Below are positions 4,120-32,415 of a stretch of DNA of 64,000 nt, piece after piece (the first letter of the stretch is position 1; every line of letters starts with the position of its first letter). The notes under the pieces are model-generated. The model searched no databases. It worked only from the letters and a program-made list of their open reading frames with translations, and had not been told where the DNA came from. The stretch comes from a virus (lineage: Duplodnaviria; Caudoviricetes). Both the position numbers and the translations under genes were made by a program. The stretch covers positions 14,759-78,758 of IMG/VR virus record IMGVR_UViG_2865671049_000004; one strand, 5' to 3'.

Positions 4120-4773
4120 GTGCCCGACCAGACCCCCGAGCCCATCGTTCCCGCCTCGATCGTCGACCTGTGGAACCGCTTCGGCTGGCCCGACGAGGAC
4201 ACGCTCGCCGCGATGGCCACGCCCGTTGACCCCCTGCTGACCAAGGAGCCCGCCGTGCCGGAGCCGACCGACCCGTTCGCTGCCACCCAAGCGCCGCTCG
4301 ACGTCATCCACGCCGCCGCCACAACCCTCGCCACCGCCGACCACCTGACGCTCGACCGCGACGGCGTTCACGCCCTGACCGTCCTGCTGCGCGTCACCGC
4401 ATGGCAGGCGGAGTCCAACCCCTTCGCAGCCGTGGAAGCCCTCGCCGTCGCCCGTGCCGTGCTCGGCGGGTGCCGAATGAGCGCCGGCGCCAGCGTCCCC
4501 GACTGGCTCGTCGACTACTTCACGCGGCGAGAGGCCGGCCGGGCCCAAGCCGTCGCCACTGTCCTCACTGGCCTGACCGAGCGGGAGCTGCTGCTCGTCA
4601 TGGAAGCGGCCGTCATGGGCTGGGTACAGGGCCAGCGGCATCACGACCTTCCGGTCCCCGGGAACCGGAAGATCCTGACCTCGGTCGTGGACGCCTGCCT
4701 CAGCTTCGCGGACATCTATCCGACGATCAGCGGCTACGTCGAAGAAGCCGAGGACGACGAGGCCGCCGAGTGA
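4120..4773 (+). CDS. Hypothetical protein, probably an in-frame fusion of 2-3 small genes
   Basis: Internal RBS+GTG at 4255; ATG at 4477 within an ATGA-overlap-like junction. Confidence 0.6.
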   Translation: MPDQTPEPIVPASIVDLWNRFGWPDEDTLAAMATPVDPLLTKEPAVPEPTDPFAATQAPLDVIHAAATTLATADHLTLDRDGVHALTVLLRVTAWQAESNPFAAVEALAVARAVLGGCRMSAGASVPDWLVDYFTRREAGRAQAVATVLTGLTERELLLVMEAAVMGWVQGQRHHDLPVPGNRKILTSVVDACLSFADIYPTISGYVEEAEDDEAAE

Positions 4774-4997
4774 CCGGGCCCGAGCTGGCCGGCCTGCTGG
4801 TCGTCCTTACCGCCATCACCGCCGCCGTCCTCGGCACCCTCGGTTGGGACCTGCGGCGCACCATCCGCTCCGCCGAGACCACCACCGAGACCGCCCTCGC
4901 CGCCCGATGCGCCGCCGCCGCCGAACAGGCCGAGCTGCAGCTCATGGCCGACGCCATCAGATCCGGCCTCATCTACCCCGGAGAGGAAACCCAGTGA
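4770..4997 (+). CDS. Small membrane-anchored hypothetical protein
   Basis: N-terminal TM helix, GTGA coupling. Confidence 0.7.
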   Translation: MTGPELAGLLVVLTAITAAVLGTLGWDLRRTIRSAETTTETALAARCAAAAEQAELQLMADAIRSGLIYPGEETQ

Positions 4998-5281: not shown

Positions 5282-5556
5282 CCCGCGCCGAAGTCCTCGC
5301 CAAGGCCATCGAGTGGGCCGCCAAGGCCGAAGACGCCGAAGCCACCCGGAACCACCACATCCGCGAGGCAGACCGCAACGCCCGCATCAAGTACTGCGAG
5401 CACCACGTCGCCACCCACCGCGCCAGAGCCGACGATGCCGCCGCAGAACGGCAGACCTCCATCGACATGGCCGCCATGTGGACCGCCATCGCTGCTGCCC
5501 TGCCCGGACCACAGCCCTACATCGCGTTCACCACCCCCGAGGAGCCGACCCCGTGA
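5278..5556 (+). CDS. Hypothetical protein
   Basis: 92 aa, coupled start and stop. Confidence 0.7.
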   Translation: MTRAEVLAKAIEWAAKAEDAEATRNHHIREADRNARIKYCEHHVATHRARADDAAAERQTSIDMAAMWTAIAAALPGPQPYIAFTTPEEPTP

Positions 5557-5954
5557 GCTCTCAGCCCCGCTCCAGCCACCGCATCAGCGGCCCCGCCCTG
5601 TGGCACATCCTCGACATCCAGCGGCAGGCCCGGCGCCTCTCCTGGCGAGGCGTCGCCCGCGAGACCGGCACCGCCACCGGCTCCCTGTTCACCCGCCTCC
5701 AGCGCGACGACATCAGCCTCCACGGTGACAGCCTCGTCAGCCTGCTCGTCTGGCTCGGCCTCGACGAGCAGATCCGCCCGCTCATCGTGGCTACGGGCAG
5801 CACCACCGCGCCTGGCCCCGAGACCGAGCCCCCTGGGATAGCTGTGCTCGTCCACATTCTGCGGAACAGCAAGGTCTCGCATCTGCAGCGCGCGTTCCGC
5901 GAGTGCGACATGAAGATCACATTCGACGCCACCCCGGAGGAGCCGACCTCGTGA
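5553..5954 (+). CDS. XRE-like HTH domain protein
   Basis: LSWRGVARETG...LFTRL...LVSLLVWLG. Confidence 0.55.
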   Translation: MSSQPRSSHRISGPALWHILDIQRQARRLSWRGVARETGTATGSLFTRLQRDDISLHGDSLVSLLVWLGLDEQIRPLIVATGSTTAPGPETEPPGIAVLVHILRNSKVSHLQRAFRECDMKITFDATPEEPTS

Positions 5955-6370: not shown

Positions 6371-7056
6371 CCGAGCCCACCACCGACCTCGCCGCCCTGC
6401 TCGGCCAACGCGTCACCGTCACCGGCCCCAACGGCAGCACGTGGGCCGGCACCCTCACAGCCCTCGCCGACCAGCCGACTGCCGTCATCGACCGACCCGA
6501 CGGTGGACGCGTCTCCCTGCCGCAGAGCTACACGTACACCGTGGTGTCCCGCCCGGAGGACGAACTCCGCGAGCAGCTGGCCGCCGCCGAAGCCCGCATC
6601 GCCGCCGCCCGGGCGCTGCACTATGCCGAGGGTTCCCAGTGGGGCGGCCTGCAGTGCTACCTGTGCCGCGACCCGTACCCGTGCGCCACGGTGACCGCGC
6701 TCGACACCTCGACCGCCGCCTTCGCCCTGCCTGTCGACGTCCTCGGCGCGCTCGTTCGAATCGCCCGCCACGTTTCCGCTGGCCGTGACGCTGTCGGCGC
6801 CCAGGAGCCGTACCCGGACGTGGCCGCCCGGTGGGCGCTGGGCCGGCTCGACGACGTCGGGCTCCTTGCTCGGCTCGACGGTCACACCTGCGCGGATGGT
6901 GAGCCGTGTCCGGCTCATGACGAGATCGCCGACACCCCGGCCGCACCGTGCGACCACCGGAACCCGAAGCGCCTCGCCTGTCGGCCCCTCGACCTCGCCG
7001 TCGTCTGCGCCTGCGGCACCGAGGTCACAGCCGGTCTCCGACCGCACCGGCGCTGA
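6367..7056 (+). CDS. Mosaic hypothetical protein
   Basis: 229 aa with several small Cys-containing modules (CYLC..YPCAT). Confidence 0.65.
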   Translation: MTEPTTDLAALLGQRVTVTGPNGSTWAGTLTALADQPTAVIDRPDGGRVSLPQSYTYTVVSRPEDELREQLAAAEARIAAARALHYAEGSQWGGLQCYLCRDPYPCATVTALDTSTAAFALPVDVLGALVRIARHVSAGRDAVGAQEPYPDVAARWALGRLDDVGLLARLDGHTCADGEPCPAHDEIADTPAAPCDHRNPKRLACRPLDLAVVCACGTEVTAGLRPHRR

Positions 7057-7176
7057 CCTGGCAGTAACGATGTGGCAGCCTCGCGTGACGGCCCGAATCG
7101 TTCCTGCCGACCGGGCCATTTTCCGTGACCTTTTCGGGCTCTGGCCGGGCATTTACCAGCTCTGTACAACGGACTC

Positions 7177-7374
7177 ATGACCAACCCCGAGTACTTCCCG
7201 ATCAGCGCCGCGCACCTGCGGAACTTCTTCGACGCCGACGGCAAGCCCCTTGCCGGGCGGAGCAAGTGTCCGACGTGCGGCAAGACCGTCTTGTTCCAGC
7301 TGGACTTCTCGAACGGGCAGGTGATGCGGTTCCGCAGTCCCTGCCACGCCTTTGAGGTGCCGACGCCCAGTTGA
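7177..7374 (+). CDS. Small Zn-ribbon hypothetical protein
   Basis: KCPTCGK; preceded by a 120-bp promoter-like gap. Confidence 0.55.
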   Translation: MTNPEYFPISAAHLRNFFDADGKPLAGRSKCPTCGKTVLFQLDFSNGQVMRFRSPCHAFEVPTPS

Positions 7375-26936: not shown

Positions 26937-28310
26937 GTGACCGAGCCCGACCTCTCCACCGACCGCTGGCTCCCCATCACCAGCGTCCTGCCCCCTGCCA
27001 CGCCCCAGCCCAAGCCGGCTGCCGACAAGCGCATCCAGCGCATGACCGCCCGCGCCGCCGAGAAGCGCGCCAACCGCCACGACGCCCTCCAGCTCCGCGC
27101 CGAGGAGCGCCGCACCCTCCGCGAGGAGCGCAGCGCGGCCCGCACCGAGGCCCGCGAACTGCGCGCCGAGAAGCGCGCAGACCGCACCGAAAGCGCCCAC
27201 CGCGCCAAGGACCGCGCCACCGCCCTCGGCCGCGGCGTCCTCGTCACCGGCCCAATCCTCGCCCCCATGGCCGTCGCCTGGACCGGCCAGTCCCAGTTCG
27301 CCATCCAGATCCTCGGCTGGGCCTTCGCCGCCAGCGTCCTCTACGCCGCCGCGTACGAGCTGACCACCGTCTACTGGGCCTGGCTCTACCATCAGGCCCG
27401 CACCGACGGCGACAGCGGCTGGGAGTACCGACTCGGCACGTGGGTCTTCGCGGCCGGCGCAGCGGTCCAGCAGTGGTGGCACTACTCGGACCACTGGGCA
27501 GCCACCCCCCGGGCCGTCACCTACTCGGTCATGTCCGCCGTCGGCGTCCTGCTCTGGGAAGGCCGGGCCCGCTTGATCCACCGGCGCAAGATGCGGGCCG
27601 AGAACAAGCTGGCGCCGGCCCGGCCCAGGATCGGCGTGGCCCGCTGGGTCCGCTACCCGGTCCGGTCCTGGACCGCCTGGTCGCTCATCACCCTCGAAGG
27701 CCACCAGACGCTGGACGCCGCGTGGACCGCCGCGGACACCGCCGTGCGGTCCAGGAAGACGGACCGCACAGACCGGACCGGACGCCGGTCCACCTGGTGG
27801 GCCGTGCAGCGGACCGACGAACCGGACCGTAAGTCGCCGGCCGCCGTGGACCGGCCCGGCCGGACCACCCTTCCGGTCGCTGGACCGGACCGGGCCGCAG
27901 CTGTCCGGACCGAGCACGTGGATCTCACCGAGTCGGTCCGGACCACACGTCGTGGACCGGACCGGGCCAGCGGGACCGGACCGCGAGGATCCACCGGTCC
28001 GGACCACACGGACCGGACCGGAATGTCCGGCACGGACCGTCAGCGGACCGCCGGGTCCAGCAAGACGGACCGGACCGCCCCCGCAGGCGACGTACCCAGC
28101 ACGGACCTGCCGCCCGCGGACCGGACCGAAGCGGACCTGGTCCTCAACGAGACCGAGCAGGCGGCCATCGACCTCCTGCAAGCCGAAGCCCGGTCCATCA
28201 GCAAGCGGTCCATCGCCGACACGGTCCGGGCCAAACTCGGCCGGTCCATCGCCTCGGACCGGGCCGCCGAAATCGCCCGCCACTACCGGACCCTTCGGTC
28301 CGCCGCCTGA
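26937..28310 (+). CDS. DUF2637-like (Spd-type) membrane protein with a repeat region and C-terminal HTH
   Basis: Coiled coil, about 4 TM helices, APARPRIG..RW..YP.RSW.AWSL, T/D/R/G/P repeat region, C-terminal ISKRSIADTVR..GRSIASDRA. Confidence 0.7.
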   Translation: MTEPDLSTDRWLPITSVLPPATPQPKPAADKRIQRMTARAAEKRANRHDALQLRAEERRTLREERSAARTEARELRAEKRADRTESAHRAKDRATALGRGVLVTGPILAPMAVAWTGQSQFAIQILGWAFAASVLYAAAYELTTVYWAWLYHQARTDGDSGWEYRLGTWVFAAGAAVQQWWHYSDHWAATPRAVTYSVMSAVGVLLWEGRARLIHRRKMRAENKLAPARPRIGVARWVRYPVRSWTAWSLITLEGHQTLDAAWTAADTAVRSRKTDRTDRTGRRSTWWAVQRTDEPDRKSPAAVDRPGRTTLPVAGPDRAAAVRTEHVDLTESVRTTRRGPDRASGTGPRGSTGPDHTDRTGMSGTDRQRTAGSSKTDRTAPAGDVPSTDLPPADRTEADLVLNETEQAAIDLLQAEARSISKRSIADTVRAKLGRSIASDRAAEIARHYRTLRSAA

Positions 28311-28440
28311 CGGTCCACCCCCAGACCGGACCGGACCGCCATCACCGAGGAGAGACCATGACCACCCCGCCGCCGTTCCACCTCCCCCGCCCGGCCCGGT
28401 CCGCCGACAGCAATGCCGGACCGCGCCGGACCCGGACCGC
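27660..28440. repeat. Dense GG(A/T)CC(G) array spanning the 3' half of the DUF2637-like gene, the intergenic gap and the start of traA
   Basis: Hand count of about 34 GGACC and 14 GGTCC in about 780 bp, in several reading frames. Confidence 0.85.
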
Positions 28441-28954
28441 CCCCACCAGCGGGCCCGGCCCGCAGTCCGTCACCAACAACCGCACCCGGCAGGGAGGCGG
28501 CTTCAACCCCACCCTCGGCTTGAACCTCAACTTCGCCAAGGGCGCTCCGCAGGCCGGGACCCCCAGCCCGGCCCCCGCGGCTGGCCCGGGCGCCCCCGCC
28601 GCCGGCCGCGGCACCCCCGGAGCGTCCTTCATGTCCAACGAGGACATCCGCGCGTTCTCCGAGCACCTCCGCAAGGGCGCCCGCAACCGGGCCGTGGAAC
28701 GAGCCATGGACGCCGAACAGCTCGAAGCGGTCCTGCGTCACATCCCCACCCAGGACGGATCCATGGGCGGTGCCCGACTCCGGGCCCGCCGTGTCTCCCG
28801 CCACCTCAAGAAGATCGCGAAGGCGGAGCAGGCCATTGCAAAGGCCGCCGCCGCGCTCTACGCCCAGTTCGAGCAGGAATACGAGGCGAACCTGCGCAAG
28901 GTCGGCAAAGCCCGCGGCCCGCAGCCCACCCGCTTCACCTTCGGCGCCTCCTGA
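28358..28954 (+). CDS. traA: Streptomyces plasmid transfer protein TraA-like
   Basis: FMSNEDIRAFSEHLRK.AR.RA.ERAMDAEQLEAVLRHIP...RARARRVSRHLK..AKAE; directly upstream of traB. Confidence 0.65.
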   Translation: MTTPPPFHLPRPARSADSNAGPRRTRTAPTSGPGPQSVTNNRTRQGGGFNPTLGLNLNFAKGAPQAGTPSPAPAAGPGAPAAGRGTPGASFMSNEDIRAFSEHLRKGARNRAVERAMDAEQLEAVLRHIPTQDGSMGGARLRARRVSRHLKKIAKAEQAIAKAAAALYAQFEQEYEANLRKVGKARGPQPTRFTFGAS

Positions 28955-29024
28955 CACCCCTGACACCGCACCCGACCTGCACTGACACCCTCTGACACCC
29001 CGGAGTGACATCGTGACCGACACC
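28951..29024 (+). repeat. CTGACACC direct repeats upstream of traB (candidate TraB recognition sequences)
   Basis: CTGACACC at 28951, 28960, 28982, 28992; degenerate GTGACATC (29005) and CCGACACC (29017). Confidence 0.8.
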
Positions 29025-30998
29025 GCCCCGGCCGCCGCGAGGAAGGCCCTGCAGCACCCCCGCACCAGGCCCTGGCTCGTCGTCGCGGCCGAACTCCCCG
29101 CCACCTTCACCACCCACTACGTCTGGGGCAACAGCGCCCTCGCCGGCGCCGGCCTCACCCTCGCCGCCGGGGCCGTCACCGCCGCCACCTGGTTCGCCAG
29201 CCAAGGAAGCACCCACCAGCGGCGCGTCCACGCCACCGCCACCGCGGCCCTCGCCACCGGCTACCTCGTCATCGGCACCGCCGCCAACCCCTACGACCCC
29301 ACCCTCGTATCCACGCTGGTCATCGGCGGTGCCACCCTCGCCGGCACGTGGAACATCCGCCAGGTCCTCCGCGTCAACCCGGACACGAAGGCCATCGAGA
29401 AGGCCCCCGCCGAGGCCGGGATCCTCACCAAGTCCATCGGCGCCGCGAAGGTCCTGCTGCGTGGGAAGCCGAAGGTCGAGGCGAACAAGGTCACCGCCGA
29501 ACTGCAGCTCGCCCCGGGCGAACTGTCCACCGACGAACTCGGCAACCGCACCAAGCAGATCGCCGGTGAGCTGGGCGTTTCCGCCAACAGCATCAAGATC
29601 CTGCCCGACCCGGACCGTGCTGACCGCGCCACCCTCATCGTCGTCCCCGAGGACATGCTCAAGAAGACCACCCCGTGGCCCGGCCCGTCCTGCCTCGGCG
29701 ACTCCATCACCGAGCCCGTCGAGATCGGCATCTACGAGGACGGCGAGGTCGCCGTCCTGTGGTTCCCCGCCGGCCCCGGCCGCAACGCCACGCACTTCCT
29801 CACCGCCGGGATGAACGGCGCGGGGAAGTCCGCCGGCCAGTCCGTCGCCATCACCGAAGTCCTGACCAGGCGAGATGTCATCGTCTGGGCGATCGACCCC
29901 AGCAAGGGCCTGCAGACGTTCGCCCCGTTCCTGCCCTACCTGGACTGGGTGGAGATGACGATGTCCGGCGGCGAGGCGATGATCGCCGCCCTCGGCCAGG
30001 TCATCACCGCCCGCGCCAACGAGATGGGCAAGCACGGCTACAAGAACTGGACCCCCGAGGTGTACGAGCGCCTCGACATGCCGTACATGGTCGTGTGGAT
30101 CGAGGAGGCCGCGAAGTTCTTCCGCGAAGGCACCGAGATGGAAGGCCTCGTCATGGAGGCCCGCTCCGCCGGGATCTCCGTCATCATCAGCCTCCAACGC
30201 CCCTCCGCCACCTCCATGCCCACCGACGTCCGTGAGCAGCTCGGCGGCGCCCTCGTCTTCGGAGTGAAGGGCTCCACCACCGCCGACATGGCCCTTCCCG
30301 AGGACGTCCGCGACGCCGGCGCCCGCCCCGAGGTCTGGCAGAACCGCAAGCCCGGCTACTGCTACCTCGTCGCCCCCGGCGTCGACGAGGAGCGCTACCC
30401 CTTCCCCATCCGCACCTACTACATCACCGACGACCAGATCGAAGGGACCCTCGCCCTCGCGCCCCGCCCCACCGCCGACCCGGTCACCGCCCGCGCCGCC
30501 GGCGAGGCCTACGCCAACCGAGCCATCCACCTCCCCGACGGCGTCTACACCACCCCCACCAGCGCAGACACCATCACCGACGTGGAGCAGCAGGACATCA
30601 TGGACGACGAGGACCAGCGCATCCAGGCCGCCGTCGATAGGGAACTGGTCCTCGACGGTGCCGACGACGACGGCTCCCCGAGCCCCGACGTCGACCCCGA
30701 GCAGGAGATCGCCGCCCCCGCGGTCCTCTGGTCCTTCGGCCAGGCCCCGCCCGCCAGCGCCGAGGTCACCACCGAGCAGGCCCTAGGCGCGGTCCTCCTG
30801 CTCCTGGAGGTCTTCCGCGACGAGGGGCGCACCATCATCGGCCCCAAGGACTTCATGCCGCACCTGCCCGCCATCGGCCGCTCCCGCGCATGGCTCTCCC
30901 CGCAGCTCGCCGACCTCGGTGAGGCTGGCATCCACCTGCAGCCGACCGGGCGGCCCGGCGAGTACCACCTCCTCGACCCGCAGTTCGCCGACGCCTGA
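29013..30998 (+). CDS. traB: TraB, FtsK/SpoIIIE-like conjugative dsDNA translocase
   Basis: N-terminal TM helices; Walker A AGMNGAGKS; Walker B VVWIEEA; ARSAGISVIISLQRPS; C-terminal wHTH. Confidence 0.9.
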   Translation: MTDTAPAAARKALQHPRTRPWLVVAAELPATFTTHYVWGNSALAGAGLTLAAGAVTAATWFASQGSTHQRRVHATATAALATGYLVIGTAANPYDPTLVSTLVIGGATLAGTWNIRQVLRVNPDTKAIEKAPAEAGILTKSIGAAKVLLRGKPKVEANKVTAELQLAPGELSTDELGNRTKQIAGELGVSANSIKILPDPDRADRATLIVVPEDMLKKTTPWPGPSCLGDSITEPVEIGIYEDGEVAVLWFPAGPGRNATHFLTAGMNGAGKSAGQSVAITEVLTRRDVIVWAIDPSKGLQTFAPFLPYLDWVEMTMSGGEAMIAALGQVITARANEMGKHGYKNWTPEVYERLDMPYMVVWIEEAAKFFREGTEMEGLVMEARSAGISVIISLQRPSATSMPTDVREQLGGALVFGVKGSTTADMALPEDVRDAGARPEVWQNRKPGYCYLVAPGVDEERYPFPIRTYYITDDQIEGTLALAPRPTADPVTARAAGEAYANRAIHLPDGVYTTPTSADTITDVEQQDIMDDEDQRIQAAVDRELVLDGADDDGSPSPDVDPEQEIAAPAVLWSFGQAPPASAEVTTEQALGAVLLLLEVFRDEGRTIIGPKDFMPHLPAIGRSRAWLSPQLADLGEAGIHLQPTGRPGEYHLLDPQFADA

Positions 30999-31150
30999 CA
31001 CTCCACTGACAGGCCCCTGACCTGCACCGACGGGACCGCTGACACCTTCCTGCCCTGTCAGGACCTGTCAGCGGCCCCGTCAGGCCGCTGACACGGCCGC
31101 CCACCTATAGGAAAGCGATCAACCACCCCGCTGTCAGCCGGCGCTGACAG
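30995..31150. repeat. Candidate clt locus: about 10 CTGAC(A) copies in both orientations downstream of traB
   Basis: CTGACA at 30995, 31006, 31039, 31088, 31144; CTGACC 31017; reverse TGTCAG at 31056, 31066, 31132; CGTCAG 31078. Confidence 0.8.
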
Positions 31151-31170
31151 CCGAGCCCGAGGACGCCCGC

Positions 31171-31596
31171 ATGACCCGGAATCGACGCCCCCCGCGAGCA
31201 GCCGTCCTTGCCGCAGCCCTGCACTCCTGGACCACCACCACCGCCGCAGGTGACCAGGGCGAACCGGCCACGCGCCTCGCCGTCCGCCAAGGGCCCACCT
31301 GGGAGCACATCGCTACTGCCAGCCTCACCGACGTGCAGGTCACCCGACTGCTCGCGGCGCTGCGTGCCGACCTCGTTCCCGACCAGCCCGCCACTCCGAT
31401 GCAGGTGGCGGCGACCCTCGATCAGTTGCTCGCCGAGTGGCGGGCCGAGGGTCGCCGCATCGTCCGCCCCAGTGACCTTGTCGAGGCGCTGCCCCGGCTC
31501 GGCTGCACGACTGCCGAGCTCGCCGCCCAGCTCGTCCGTCTTGTCGACGACCGCTACTTGCACGAGACCCGCCACCCCGGCACCTACCGCCTCTGA
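31171..31596 (+). CDS. Protein whose C-terminal half is a paralogue of the TraB wHTH domain
   Basis: 25/68 identities by hand alignment to the TraB C-terminus (LL..WR.EGR.I..P.DL...LP..G...L..QL..L...L..T..PG.Y.L). Confidence 0.8.
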   Translation: MTRNRRPPRAAVLAAALHSWTTTTAAGDQGEPATRLAVRQGPTWEHIATASLTDVQVTRLLAALRADLVPDQPATPMQVAATLDQLLAEWRAEGRRIVRPSDLVEALPRLGCTTAELAAQLVRLVDDRYLHETRHPGTYRL

Positions 31597-31613
31597 CCAC
31601 CGTGGAGAACCCG

Positions 31614-32078
31614 ATGAACACTCAGAGCGCCAACAATCCACCCGTCTACCAGCCGACCCCGATCCCGTTCCTGCCCGCCCCTGTTCGGGCGCCCCAGCCG
31701 CTGGTCCAGCAGTTGCCCGGAGTCGTCGTCACCCCCGACGGGCAGCTGTACCACGGCTACCCGCCGATCCCGTACCCGGAGCCCCTCCCCCCAGACCCGC
31801 GGCCGAAGTTGCTGGCGAGCGCCGGCGTCTTCGGCGCGGGCGTCGGCTGGGGCGGGGCGCAGTTGCTGGGCGCGCTGGCCGGCGTCTCCACGGGGACACT
31901 GCTCGCGGCGACAGTCGCGGTGATCGCCCTGAAGACGAAGCTGCCGACGCCCGGGGGCGCTGGGGGCGGGACGGTGTACAACCACACCGAGCACAATCAC
32001 CACCACACCACCGCCACGGGCCTGTTCGGCCGGGCCACCACCGCGATCAACAGCGCGCGCACCAACAACTTCAACTGA
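31614..32078 (+). CDS. Pro-rich membrane protein (SpdD-like spread protein)
   Basis: Pro-rich N-terminus, two hydrophobic segments, YNHTEHNHHH tail; located in the tra locus. Confidence 0.55.
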   Translation: MNTQSANNPPVYQPTPIPFLPAPVRAPQPLVQQLPGVVVTPDGQLYHGYPPIPYPEPLPPDPRPKLLASAGVFGAGVGWGGAQLLGALAGVSTGTLLAATVAVIALKTKLPTPGGAGGGTVYNHTEHNHHHTTATGLFGRATTAINSARTNNFN

Positions 32079-32136
32079 CACAGCCGCCCGCCCCTGACAT
32101 TTCCAGGGGCGGGCACCGGCGCGAGAGGATGAACCC

Positions 32137-32415
32137 ATGAGCGAGCCCTATGCCCCCTTCCCCGGATCCGTAGAACTCAGCGCGACTGTCGAAGTCAACG
32201 GGCGCCGCTACCAAGCCCGCACCCAGGCTCCCCTGCAGGACTGGCAGCGGGACGAGCAGTACCAGGAGTGGCTGAAGGCGGATCTTCTGCGGTCCCTCGG
32301 CGAGGGGATCGTGAAGGGTCTCGCCCCCGAGGTCATGGTCACCCTGCCCGGCCCGACCCTGCAGGAGGCGCTCACCGACGCGCTCCGCCCCTTCGACTAC
32401 CCGACCGAGTACTGA
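32137..32415 (+). CDS. Hypothetical protein
   Basis: 92 aa, GAGAGG RBS. Confidence 0.7.
   Translation: MSEPYAPFPGSVELSATVEVNGRRYQARTQAPLQDWQRDEQYQEWLKADLLRSLGEGIVKGLAPEVMVTLPGPTLQEALTDALRPFDYPTEY

What the first reader, a model, noticed from the sequence alone, without database searches (positions are those of the whole stretch)
31171..31596. Free-standing paralogue of the TraB DNA-recognition (wHTH) domain with an altered recognition helix
Seen: the C-terminal 67 aa align with the TraB C-terminus at 25/68 identity (hand alignment), but the predicted recognition segment changes from GRSRAWLSPQL to GCTTAELAAQL, losing the basic residues and Trp. The gene directly follows the clt-like repeats. 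Established: helix 3 of the TraB wHTH determines clt specificity. Inference: a decoy or modulator of TraB (transfer inhibition, exclusion, or a brake during lytic growth), or an adaptor with new specificity such as the GGACC array. I do not know of a description of such a TraB-domain paralogue.
Basis: partly seen in the sequence, partly recalled or inferred. Interest (0 to 1): 0.75.

Follow-up and report, generated by a model that had tools for sequence, protein, structure and literature searches.

The report
Free-standing copy of TraB's DNA-reading head
A real, conserved 141-residue gene directly behind the conjugation motor gene traB encodes a new N-terminal domain joined to a copy of TraB's DNA-recognition (winged-helix) head; in this element's lineage the reading helix has been rewritten, and the protein family appears to be undescribed.

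Summary
ORF 31171-31596 (+) codes for a 141-aa protein whose last ~70 residues are homologous to the TraB C-terminal winged helix. Support: BLASTP E 4e-8, profile-profile 98.5% / E 3e-15, and the NCBIfam TraB model as its only hit.

It is not a decaying duplicate. I found 37 close homologues and about 8 clusters at 50% identity. In all 15 loci examined the gene sits directly after traA-traB and a block of CTGACA(C) repeats, in phage-like elements, AICE-like islands and plasmid pCQ3. dN/dS of its winged helix (0.21-0.47) is no higher than that of TraB's own.

The altered helix is real but specific to one clade. Most members keep a TraB-like R-S-R-x-W helix. A single well-supported clade of 14, including the window, carries G-C-T-x-x-E/D-L instead, while its TraBs and repeats are unchanged.

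It lost an Arg and a Trp that are invariant in every TraB examined, whichever of four or more repeat motifs follows the gene. A plain retargeting therefore looks less likely than loss of TraB-style reading.

The suggested GGACC target does not co-vary with helix type.

The scan noted this gene once before, on an overlapping window of the same genome, not on other DNA.

The parts
28358..28954 (+). traA-like gene (198 aa)
   Evidence: NCBIfam plasmid_TraA NF041213 at 105 bits against a cut-off of 80. The Pfam TraA-like family hits the same slot in related loci.
28951..28998 (+). Four direct CTGACAC repeats at -62, -53, -31 and -21 from the traB start
   Evidence: expected 0.015 in 74 bp, P about 2e-9. 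Equivalent repeats occur at near-identical offsets in 9 of 10 related loci.
29013..30998 (+). traB, an FtsK-like dsDNA translocase (661 aa). Its winged-helix head is residues ~583-661 (nt 30759-30995) with helix I-G-R-S-R-A-W-L-S.
   Evidence: NF041214 at 791 bits; phrog_24831 at 6e-84. The helix is invariant in the TraBs of the 12 loci first compared; two deep-branch TraBs differ before the shared R-x-W-L-S.
30995..31094 (.). Distal cluster of six CTGACA/TGTCAG repeats beginning at the traB stop codon: the candidate clt
   Evidence: It matches in position and motif the pWTY27 clt (four TGACACC copies), which was footprinted by that plasmid's TraB homologue (PMC3583192).
31101..31117 (+). Conserved, relatively AT-rich box CCACCTATAGGAAAGCG; a candidate promoter element (inferred only)
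   Evidence: It is conserved at the same place in window, L001, L002, L004, L006 and L020. A second box type occupies the slot in L018, L019 and L021. The sigma-70 consensus scan found nothing.
31131..31151 (.). Proximal repeat pair GCTGTCAGC-N3-GCTGACAGC (a palindrome) between the box and the ribosome-binding site
   Evidence: Every locus has 2-3 CTGACA copies in this slot, either direct or inverted.
31159..31163 (+). Ribosome-binding site GAGGA, 7 nt before the ATG
   Evidence: Read directly from the sequence. The same element is present in the other loci.
31171..31386 (+). Paralogue N-terminal domain (residues 1-72): a basic tail, then helix, beta-hairpin, helix. This is the most conserved part of the family.
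   Evidence: AF2 model. Seventeen of the 27 invariant columns lie here. It has no relatives outside the family among 1.84 billion representatives and no fold match.
31387..31596 (+). Paralogue winged-helix domain (residues 73-141) plus the stop codon
   Evidence: hhalign against TraB, E 3e-15. AF2 pLDDT is about 90. VIA-align gives Z 8-9.1 against winged-helix domains over residues 73-141.
31492..31548 (+). Turn plus recognition helix (residues 108-126): P-R-L-G-C-T-T-A-E-L-A-A-Q-L-V-R-L-V-D, the altered segment
   Evidence: Clade-diagnostic residues are L110, C112, Q120 and I121, together with V79, T82, L83 and R128.
31614..32078 (+). Small Pro-rich protein (154 aa) with two hydrophobic, apparently membrane-spanning stretches, Spd-like, probably co-transcribed
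   Evidence: It starts 18 nt after the paralogue's stop. A protein of this build follows the paralogue in 9 of 12 loci, in two sequence families. It has no Pfam or PHROG family.
32075..32099 (+). Two further CTGACA copies ahead of ORF 32137-32415

Best explanation
Shown: this is a functional accessory gene of the TraA-TraB-clt DNA-transfer module. It arose by duplication of TraB's C-terminal winged-helix (clt-reading) head, joined to a family-specific N-terminal domain of unknown fold. It is the first gene after the clt and is usually followed by a small Spd-like membrane protein gene.

Inferred for the ancestral form: it keeps a TraB-like helix (R-I-G-R/Q-S-R-x-W-L-A). It most likely binds the same CTGACAC repeats that lie just upstream of its own start codon and just upstream of traB. 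As a small soluble protein it could compete with, or stand in for, the membrane-bound TraB hexamer at these sites, and so control clt access and expression of the post-clt operon.

Inferred for the window's protein: it belongs to a single derived clade whose helix was rewritten (R to C, S to T, R to T, W to E/D, H to Q) and whose domain core was repacked. Its TraB and the repeats stayed the same. My best reading is that it no longer reads CTGACAC the way TraB does. It would instead act as a modulator of the transfer and spread module through its conserved N-domain (oligomerisation or contact with TraB or Spd proteins), together with the conserved basic wing (E-T-R-R/H-P-G-T-Y-R-L) and basic N-terminal tail, which could still give low-specificity DNA contact.

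Identity, conservation and the clade structure are shown. DNA binding, TraB contact and the biological effect are inferred.
For: Homology to the TraB head:
-.

Two-domain model with a winged-helix C-domain:
-.

Conservation:
- 37 homologues of 135-146 aa and about 8 clusters at 50% identity among 1.84 billion representatives.

Synteny:
- TraA-like, TraB, CTGACA repeats, then the paralogue, in all 15 loci examined. These include AICE-like islands with Prim-Pol and KilB, phage-like elements with a portal gene, and pCQ3.

Selection (Nei-Gojobori dN/dS):
- Paralogue winged helix 0.21-0.47, TraB's own winged helix 0.14-0.74, TraB motor 0.09-0.17.

The altered clade:
- It is monophyletic (100/98) and nested within TraB-like-helix sequences.
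- Its new residues are fixed: C112, T113 and Q120 are in 14 of 14.
- TraB's helix core S-R-[A/S/P]-W-[L/I]-S is unchanged in the 12 loci first compared, whichever type of paralogue they carry. The two deep-branch TraBs vary only before the shared R-x-W-L-S.

The lost residues:
- The Arg and Trp of R-x-W-[VLI]-S are kept in every other TraB inspected, although the downstream repeats differ: CTGACGC, CTGTCAC, CCGCACA, CTGACAC. The altered clade lost both.

The repeats:
- They are concentrated exactly before traB and before the paralogue.
- They match the experimentally footprinted pWTY27 clt (PMC3583192).

No new target:
- No repeat motif specific to altered-helix loci was found, and the GGWCC array does not co-vary with helix type.
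Against: There is no direct evidence for DNA binding, for TraB contact or for any phenotype.

Even among the TraB-like-helix members the helix is looser than in TraB. Four of 30 lack both arginines (Q-T-T-x-W), although the repeats stay CTGACAC. The family may therefore never have depended on TraB-like reading.

The altered clade keeps the wing, P108-R109 and a net positive C-domain, and gains R128. This is compatible with retained, possibly specific, DNA binding.

The N-domain modelled poorly on its own (pLDDT 66).

The promoter is inferred only; the consensus scan found none.

dN/dS values of 0.2-0.6 indicate only moderate constraint, and dS is distorted by the GC3 bias.
Confidence: 0.4

Rival explanations
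1. Retargeted DNA-binding protein. The rewritten helix gives the window's clade a new sequence specificity, either an operator elsewhere in the element (for example the GGACC array) or a site in the host, turning it into a regulator or adaptor with a new target.
For: The new helix residues are fixed and conserved across 14 diverged sequences, including Cys, Thr and Gln. The wing and the P-R turn are intact and R128 is gained. TraB lineages do show helix and repeat changing together, so small helix changes can retarget this fold.
Against: The GGWCC array occurs in 3 of 5 altered-helix loci and 2 of 5 TraB-like-helix loci. No 7-9-mer is repeated specifically in altered-helix loci within -5 kb to +2.5 kb (a crude test). 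The Arg and Trp that it lost are kept in TraBs of every specificity seen. The helix-turn-helix segment goes from net +1.2 to -0.2.
Confidence: 0.2
2. Unchanged function. Both helix types still bind the CTGACA repeats (with the wing and other contacts dominating), and the protein is simply an autoregulator or repressor at the clt-embedded leader and the traB leader.
For: CTGACA copies sit between the conserved box and the ribosome-binding site in every locus of both types, and ahead of traB in 9 of 10. The wing E-T-R-R-P-G-T-Y-R is the most conserved part of the C-domain in both types. Helix residues already vary among TraB-like-helix members without any change in the repeats.
Against: Trp is invariant in all 30 TraB-like-helix members and in all TraBs, and is replaced by an acidic residue in most of the altered clade. 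The co-ordinated core and surface substitutions point to a functional shift.
Confidence: 0.15
3. A protein-binding winged helix that never touches DNA. In this reading the head is a stand-in for the translocase head, contacting a recombinase, TraB's motor or an Spd protein. This would parallel the way FtsK's gamma domain activates XerD and the way the phage factor XafT substitutes for it.
For: Many of the top fold matches are protein-binding winged helices: Stn1, MCM8, Rpa2 and cullin WHB. FtsK gamma is known to have a second, protein-activating role, and a phage factor replaces it (PMC3130261, PMC6744903, listed; abstracts only were read). The pSVH1 spread and transfer proteins form a dense interaction network with TraB (PMC4447253).
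Against: There is no sequence or context link to Xer recombinases. The basic tail and basic wing look DNA-directed. The retention of R-S-R-x-W in most members is most simply explained by DNA reading. Fold matches at Z 7-9 are generic for winged helices.
Confidence: 0.07
4. A decaying duplicate or mis-called ORF with no function.
For: There is no Pfam family. dN/dS is only moderately below 1. In pSVH1, several small genes of the transfer region give no phenotype when deleted (PMC4447253).
Against: The frame is intact, the length is conserved at 135-158 aa, and the start and ribosome-binding site are conserved in all 15 loci and 44 sequences. Synteny persists down to 37% identity. The new helix residues are fixed. 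Constraint equals that on TraB's own head.
Confidence: 0.02

Closest known systems
C-terminal winged-helix (clt/TRS-recognition) domain of Streptomyces TraB (pSVH1 TraB; the pWTY27 'TraA')
   Same: Homologous over about 70 residues (E 3e-15) with the same fold. Most family members keep the same helix motif and sit next to the same repeats. The pWTY27 homologue footprints TGACACC repeats in the equivalent position (PMC3583192).
   Different: It is free-standing, with no membrane anchor and no motor, and it is joined to an unrelated N-domain. The window's clade has lost the Arg and Trp that every examined TraB keeps.
FtsK/SpoIIIE gamma domain (reads KOPS/SRS and activates XerD)
   Same: It is the concept on which TraB's head is modelled: a winged helix that reads 8-bp polar motifs for a dsDNA pump and can also act through protein contacts (PMC3130261).
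   Different: Pfam FtsK_gamma does not hit this protein, or even its TraB, at E<=1. No link to Xer recombination was seen.
XafT of the satellite phage TLC-phi
   Same: It is a free-standing protein encoded by a mobile element that takes over a function of a translocase's gamma head (PMC6744903, PMC9226527). This is a functional analogy for a 'head without motor'.
   Different: It has a different fold family and host and a known partner (XerD). No homology is claimed or was tested.
SpdA/SpdA2 of Streptomyces rolling-circle plasmids
   Same: It is a small (117-163 aa) soluble DNA-binding protein of the spread region. In pSN22 a 107-aa gene occupies the slot right after traB. SpdA has been proposed as the link between the DNA substrate and the TraB/Spd apparatus (PMC4170104, PMC4447253).
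   Different: There is no homology: hhalign probability is 0.1% against the pSN22 protein in that slot. SpdA binds a palindrome inside its own gene through a zinc-finger-like N-terminus.
pSVH1 Orf140
   Same: It is of similar size (140 aa) and soluble. [quoted passage not shown] It is a model for what a TraB-associated accessory protein looks like.
'Short TraB' (139 aa) of the AICE18 family in Choufa et al. 2022
   Same: It has the modal length of this family (139 aa), was picked up by a TraB profile, lies next to an 'ATP/GTP-binding protein', and sits in an AICE with PrimPol replication, as in loci L001 and L033 (PMC9513070).
   Different: The paper treats it as a short TraB that could not be aligned and gives no domain analysis. 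Identity with this family is not verified because I had no sequence.

Membership tests
TraB C-terminal winged-helix (clt-recognition) domain | Sequence homology to the last ~70 residues of TraB | tested here: met
   BLASTP E 4e-8; hhalign 98.5%, E 3.2e-15; NF041214 positions 564-632, E 4.8e-6; phrog_24831 positions 624-689.
TraB C-terminal winged-helix (clt-recognition) domain | Three-helix winged-helix fold with a C-terminal beta-hairpin wing | tested here: met
   AF2 places helices at 76-92, 100-110 and 114-126 followed by a hairpin, with pLDDT about 90. VIA-align gives Z 8-9.1, rmsd 1.7-2.6 over 62-65 residues, against winged-helix domains.
TraB C-terminal winged-helix (clt-recognition) domain | Recognition-helix signature R-x-W-[LIV]-S/A, kept in all TraBs examined | tested here: not met
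   The window has T-T-A-E-L-A. All 14 members of its clade lack the Trp, while 30 of 30 other family members and all TraBs keep it.
TraB C-terminal winged-helix (clt-recognition) domain | Specific binding to the repeated 7-8-bp motif of clt | not testable with these tools
   This needs EMSA or footprinting. The only evidence here is proximity to the CTGACA repeats.
Full-length TraB translocase (NCBIfam plasmid_TraB, equivalog) | N-terminal membrane segments plus an FtsK-type ATPase motor; whole-protein score of at least 800 bits | tested here: not met
   The protein is 141 aa and scores 25 bits, covering the last tenth of the model only. It should therefore not be annotated as 'TraB'.
Pfam FtsK_gamma (PF09397) | Match to the Pfam model | tested here: inconclusive
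   There is no hit at E<=1 for this protein or for its neighbouring TraB, so the model appears blind to this lineage.
SpdA/SpdA2 | Homology to the conserved N-terminal DNA-binding region of SpdA | tested here: not met
   hhalign probability is 0.1% against the pSN22 protein encoded right after traB. The A1 profile finds nothing but TraB in pSN22 and pWTY27.
pSVH1 Orf140-type TraB-associated protein | Sequence homology; self-association; contact with the TraB N-terminus | not tested

The most novel reading that the evidence does not exclude
The family is a dedicated trans-acting 'head without motor' that governs TraB loading at clt. TraB-like-helix members would compete with or prime TraB on the CTGACAC repeats. 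The rewritten-helix clade would be a natural dominant-negative or anti-TraB form that joins TraB or Spd assemblies without reading clt. This would let phage-conjugative hybrid elements switch between exporting naked dsDNA through TraB and packaging it into capsids.
Probability: 0.12. Interest if true: 0.8.

Novelty: new variant of a known kind. Interest (0 to 1): 0.55.

Why it matters
Streptomyces conjugation is unusual in that one FtsK-like pump, TraB, finds its plasmid through a small winged-helix head that reads short repeats. How loading at clt is controlled, and what the many small genes of the transfer and spread region do, is largely open.

This family is a soluble, separately encoded copy of that head. 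It is always placed right behind clt, and nature has supplied two versions of it: one with a TraB-like helix and one rewritten, both on the same TraB and clt background. That makes a clean comparative experiment possible using EMSA, helix swaps and mating assays.

It also corrects annotation. These proteins are 'hypothetical' in NCBI and may have been counted as 'short TraB' in AICE surveys.

The elements that carry it include tailed-phage-like genomes with a full TraA-TraB module, so it may bear on how such hybrids choose between two routes of DNA export.

Tried and rejected
- **Complex prediction.** TraB contact and self-association are therefore untested.
- **N-domain fold.** The Atlas structure search gave only weak look-alikes (DUF6272, TM 0.64). 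A separate AF2 model was poor (pLDDT 66), and its best VIA match was Z 3.9 to COMM domains. No fold could be assigned.
- **Foldseek against PDB with the whole model.** Nothing reached E<=0.001; there were only generic winged-helix rows.
- **PDB sequence search with the profile.** Nothing meaningful.
- **Pfam.** No family for the protein.
- **GGACC-array adaptor idea.** No co-occurrence with helix type.
- **Repeated k-mers specific to altered-helix loci.** None found (a crude test).
- **Orientation of the proximal repeat pair against helix type.** No association.
- **Sigma-70 promoter and terminator scan of 28800-32300.** No sites, so the promoter is not demonstrated.
- **Phage collection and IMG/VR.** No relatives of the paralogue.
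- **Plasmid-phage pZL12 as a possible experimental model.** It has no TraB of this lineage: there was no Streptomyces hit, and the record was inspected.
- **SpdA homology.** Rejected.
- **Short 'C-domain only' hits in the representatives search** (117-145 aa). They carry the TraB acidic linker and look like TraB fragments, not further free-standing families.
- **Literature search for short, truncated or paralogous TraB.** It returned only unrelated 'trabecula' papers.
- **Papers not held.** Vogelmann 2011 and the pZL12 paper. Statements about helix alpha3 rest on their citation in PMC3583192.

Full report
**Setting**

The window is 64 kb of a 78.8-kb IMG/VR 'provirus' record, high in G+C (about 0.70). 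It carries a repressor-like gene, then a DUF2637 membrane gene and a traA-like gene. traB (29013-30998) follows, and further downstream lie a terminase large subunit, a portal protein, a major head protein and a tape-measure protein. The finding concerns the first gene after traB.

Yes. ORF 31171-31596 (+) has the GC1/GC2/GC3 pattern of a coding frame (0.77/0.56/0.83). GAGGA sits 7 nt before the ATG, and the N-terminus is conserved among homologues.

Four independent comparisons support homology of its C-terminal part to the TraB C-terminus:
- BLASTP against the neighbouring TraB: 23/57 identical, E 4e-8.
- Profile-profile alignment of 37 family members against five TraBs: probability 98.5%, E 3.2e-15, 73 columns.
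- NCBIfam: the only hit is plasmid_TraB, at its last 70 positions, E 4.8e-6.
- PHROGs: the only hit is the TraB-like family that the neighbouring TraB matches at 6e-84.

The AF2 model built on the family alignment (pLDDT 84) has two domains. Residues 9-68 form helix, hairpin, helix. Residues 73-141 form a three-helix winged helix. The latter superposes on many solved winged-helix domains at Z 8-9.

**Is it a conserved gene or a dying duplicate?**

It is conserved. The word-indexed search found 37 proteins of 135-146 aa at 52-88% identity. The exhaustive profile search of 1.84 billion representatives found about eight full-length clusters at 50% identity. It found nothing else that shares the N-domain.

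I inspected 15 loci: the window, L001, L002, L004, L006 (the same element as L012), L007, L013, L018-L022, L033 and L034.
- In every one the order is TraA-like gene, ~660-685-aa TraB, a 130-190-bp gap full of CTGACA repeats, then this gene. In L013 an extra small ORF is inserted into the gap.
- The hosts of the module differ. Some are AICE-like islands with GntR, NUDIX, KilB and Prim-Pol genes (L001, L033). Some are phage-like contigs with a portal gene (L002, L006). One is the 85.5-kb circular plasmid pCQ3, which also encodes a major capsid protein.

Nei-Gojobori dN/dS for the paralogue's winged helix is 0.21-0.47 within the window's clade. For the same loci, TraB's own winged helix gives 0.14-0.74 and the TraB motor 0.09-0.17. 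The paralogue's head is therefore at least as constrained as TraB's own.

**How common is it?**

It is rare and tied to one TraB lineage.
- Among 401 Streptomycetaceae species genomes, 35 match the profile, but 32 of these only through the C-terminus of a ~680-930-aa TraB. Three carry the free-standing gene. Only ten candidates per genome were scored.
- Among plasmids, 17 have a near full-length TraB match. Only the two closest (pCQ3 and the related plasmid of strain W75, 63% TraB identity) carry the gene.
- pWTY27 and pSN22 lack it.
- Named database members are all 'hypothetical protein'.

**The helix**

- Thirty of 44 sequences, including all deep branches and pCQ3, keep P-R-I-G-(R/Q)-(S/T)-(R/K/T)-x-W-L-A-x-H.
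- Fourteen carry P-R-L-(G/A)-C-T-x-x-(E/D/A)-L-A-x-Q.

On a maximum-likelihood tree the second group is one clade (100/98 support), nested inside the first and sister to a TraB-like-helix sequence. The clade also has fixed changes in helix 1 (V79, T82, L83), in the core (L110, I121) and before the wing (R128). The net charge of the helix-turn-helix segment drops from +1.2 to -0.2. This looks like a single, maintained remodelling rather than drift.

Meanwhile TraB's helix is I-(G/A)-R-S-R-(A/S/P)-W-(L/I)-S in the 12 loci compared first, whichever paralogue type they carry. In the two deep-branch loci it differs only before the shared R-x-W-L-S. The repeats stay CTGACA(C) in all of them.

**What do the lost residues mean?**

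I compared further TraBs from AICEs and plasmids. The Arg and Trp of R-x-W-(V/L/I)-S are present in all of them, although the repeat that follows the gene differs:

| TraB helix | Repeat downstream of the gene |
|---|---|
| F-(N/R/H)-R-(S/G)-R-x-W | CTGACGC |
| F-N-R-S-R-Q-W | CTGTCAC |
| I-G-R-D-R-S-W (pSN22) | CCGCACA |
| I-G-R-S-R-S-W (L024); K-L-S-R-P-W (pWTY27) | CTGACAC |

The two residues therefore seem to belong to the general DNA-contact frame, and their neighbours to specificity. Losing both argues for loss of TraB-style reading rather than simple retargeting.

There is a caveat. Among the TraB-like-helix paralogues the arginines are already less strict: four of 30 have Q-T-T-x-W, while the repeats remain CTGACAC. 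The paralogue's helix has therefore been freer than TraB's all along. The most conserved parts of the family are the N-domain, the P-R turn and the wing E-T-R-R-P-G-T-Y-R.

**The DNA around it**

Of the window's 25 CTGACA/TGTCAG sites, 14 lie between 28951 and 32094:
- four direct copies at -62 to -21 of the traB start (P about 2e-9);
- eight in the 181-bp traB-paralogue gap (P about 8e-17);
- two ahead of ORF 32137.

The arrangement recurs across loci. A distal cluster begins at the traB stop. A conserved, relatively AT-rich box follows (CCACCTATAGG, or a second type). Then come two or three proximal copies, GAGGA and the ATG. Copies at nearly fixed offsets before traB occur in 9 of 10 loci.

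For pWTY27, whose translocase is 37% identical to this TraB, the clt was mapped to the same place: 16 bp inside the gene plus the next 159 bp. The protein footprinted on four TGACACC repeats (PMC3583192).

The gap is therefore best read as clt. The proximal copies and those before traB sit where an operator would sit. No consensus promoter was detected, so the regulatory layout is inference.

**The rest of the operon**

The next gene starts 18 nt after the paralogue's stop. It encodes a Pro-rich protein with two hydrophobic, apparently membrane-spanning stretches, like Spd proteins. A protein of that build follows in 9 of 12 loci, but in two unrelated sequence families, and the window's version matches those of the deep AICE branch. 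The paralogue is thus tied to traB-clt rather than to a particular downstream partner.

- 'Adaptor for the GGACC array': the GGWCC array (29-50 sites per 800 bp inside the DUF2637 gene) is present in the window, L004 and L019 (altered helix) and in L020 and L006 (TraB-like helix). It is absent from L002 and L021 (altered helix) and from L001, L013 and L007 (TraB-like helix). There is no association.
- No other repeated 7-9-mer marks the altered-helix loci.

**Comparison with the literature**

- The protein is not SpdA (hhalign probability 0.1%). SpdA is a positional and conceptual analogue: a small DNA-binding protein of the spread region (PMC4170104).
- pSVH1 Orf140 (140 aa) self-associates, binds the TraB N-terminus in two-hybrid assays, and gives no deletion phenotype (PMC4447253).
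- Choufa et al. 2022 list four 139-aa 'short TraB' proteins next to an 'ATP/GTP-binding protein' in a PrimPol-type AICE family and set them aside as unalignable (PMC9513070). By length and context these may be this family, but that is unverified.
- I found no paper that describes a free-standing TraB-head protein, and no Pfam or NCBIfam model exists for it.
- The FtsK gamma domain's second role in activating XerD, and the phage factor XafT that replaces it (PMC3130261, PMC6744903), show that a 'head without motor' can be a functional device. This is an analogy only.

**Verdict**

Other parts are corrected: the altered helix is clade-specific, the gene is rare, and the GGACC idea is unsupported.

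What the protein is stands on firm ground. How it works is inferred. My leading reading, at about 0.4, is an accessory modulator of the TraB-clt and spread module. In this lineage it would no longer read the TraB repeat.

The same gene was noted once before by this scan, as 'a wHTH gene' on an overlapping window of the same genome. It was not noted on other DNA.

Noticed in passing
window 27650-28450; also L004 ~1400-2200, L019 ~4150-4950, L020 ~1500-2300, L006 ~6450-7250: A dense GG(A/T)CC array (29-50 sites per 800 bp) inside the 3' part of the DUF2637 membrane gene recurs in 5 of 10 related loci and is absent from the other 5. It is independent of the paralogue's helix type.
   Followed up: partly
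L023-L031, L008 (pWTY27), L009 (pSN22): TraB 3' ends and the 230 nt after them: Across TraB lineages the residues flanking the invariant R-x-W of the recognition helix change together with the repeat found after the gene: F-N/R/H-R-S/G-R-x-W with CTGACGC, I-G-R-S-R-x-W with CTGACAC, I-G-R-D-R-S-W with CCGCACA. This could become a small helix-to-clt code table.
   Followed up: partly
window 28951-28998 and the same offsets in L002, L004, L019, L020, L021, L006, L013, L007, L034: Direct CTGACA repeats sit at nearly fixed positions (-62, -53, -31, -21) before the traB start codon, overlapping its leader and ribosome-binding-site region. This suggests control of traB by a protein that reads the clt motif.
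   Followed up: partly
L034 3445-3633: A separate 62-aa ORF with a Pfam FtsK_gamma hit lies upstream of the TraA-TraB module in the same element that also has the TraB-head paralogue. It is a second free-standing 'gamma-type' head.
   Followed up: no
L013 ~5530-5800 (between traB and the repeats): A Cys-rich small ORF is inserted between traB and clt, and the traB-end sequence (CCGCCTGACCTGCACCGACACC) is duplicated after it.
   Followed up: no
window 31614-32078 compared with L033 8471-8959 and L034 8486-8929: The Spd-like membrane gene after the paralogue is homologous to those of the deep AICE branch, not to those of the other altered-helix loci. The module downstream of the paralogue is therefore mosaic.
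   Followed up: partly
window 29013-30998: TraB scores 791 bits against NCBIfam plasmid_TraB, just under the 800-bit cut-off. Automatic annotation may therefore leave it unnamed or call it only an FtsK/SpoIIIE or ATP-binding protein.
   Followed up: no
window 32075-32099: Two more CTGACA copies lie between the Spd-like gene and ORF 32137-32415. Among the loci checked, only L001 has anything comparable downstream.
   Followed up: no
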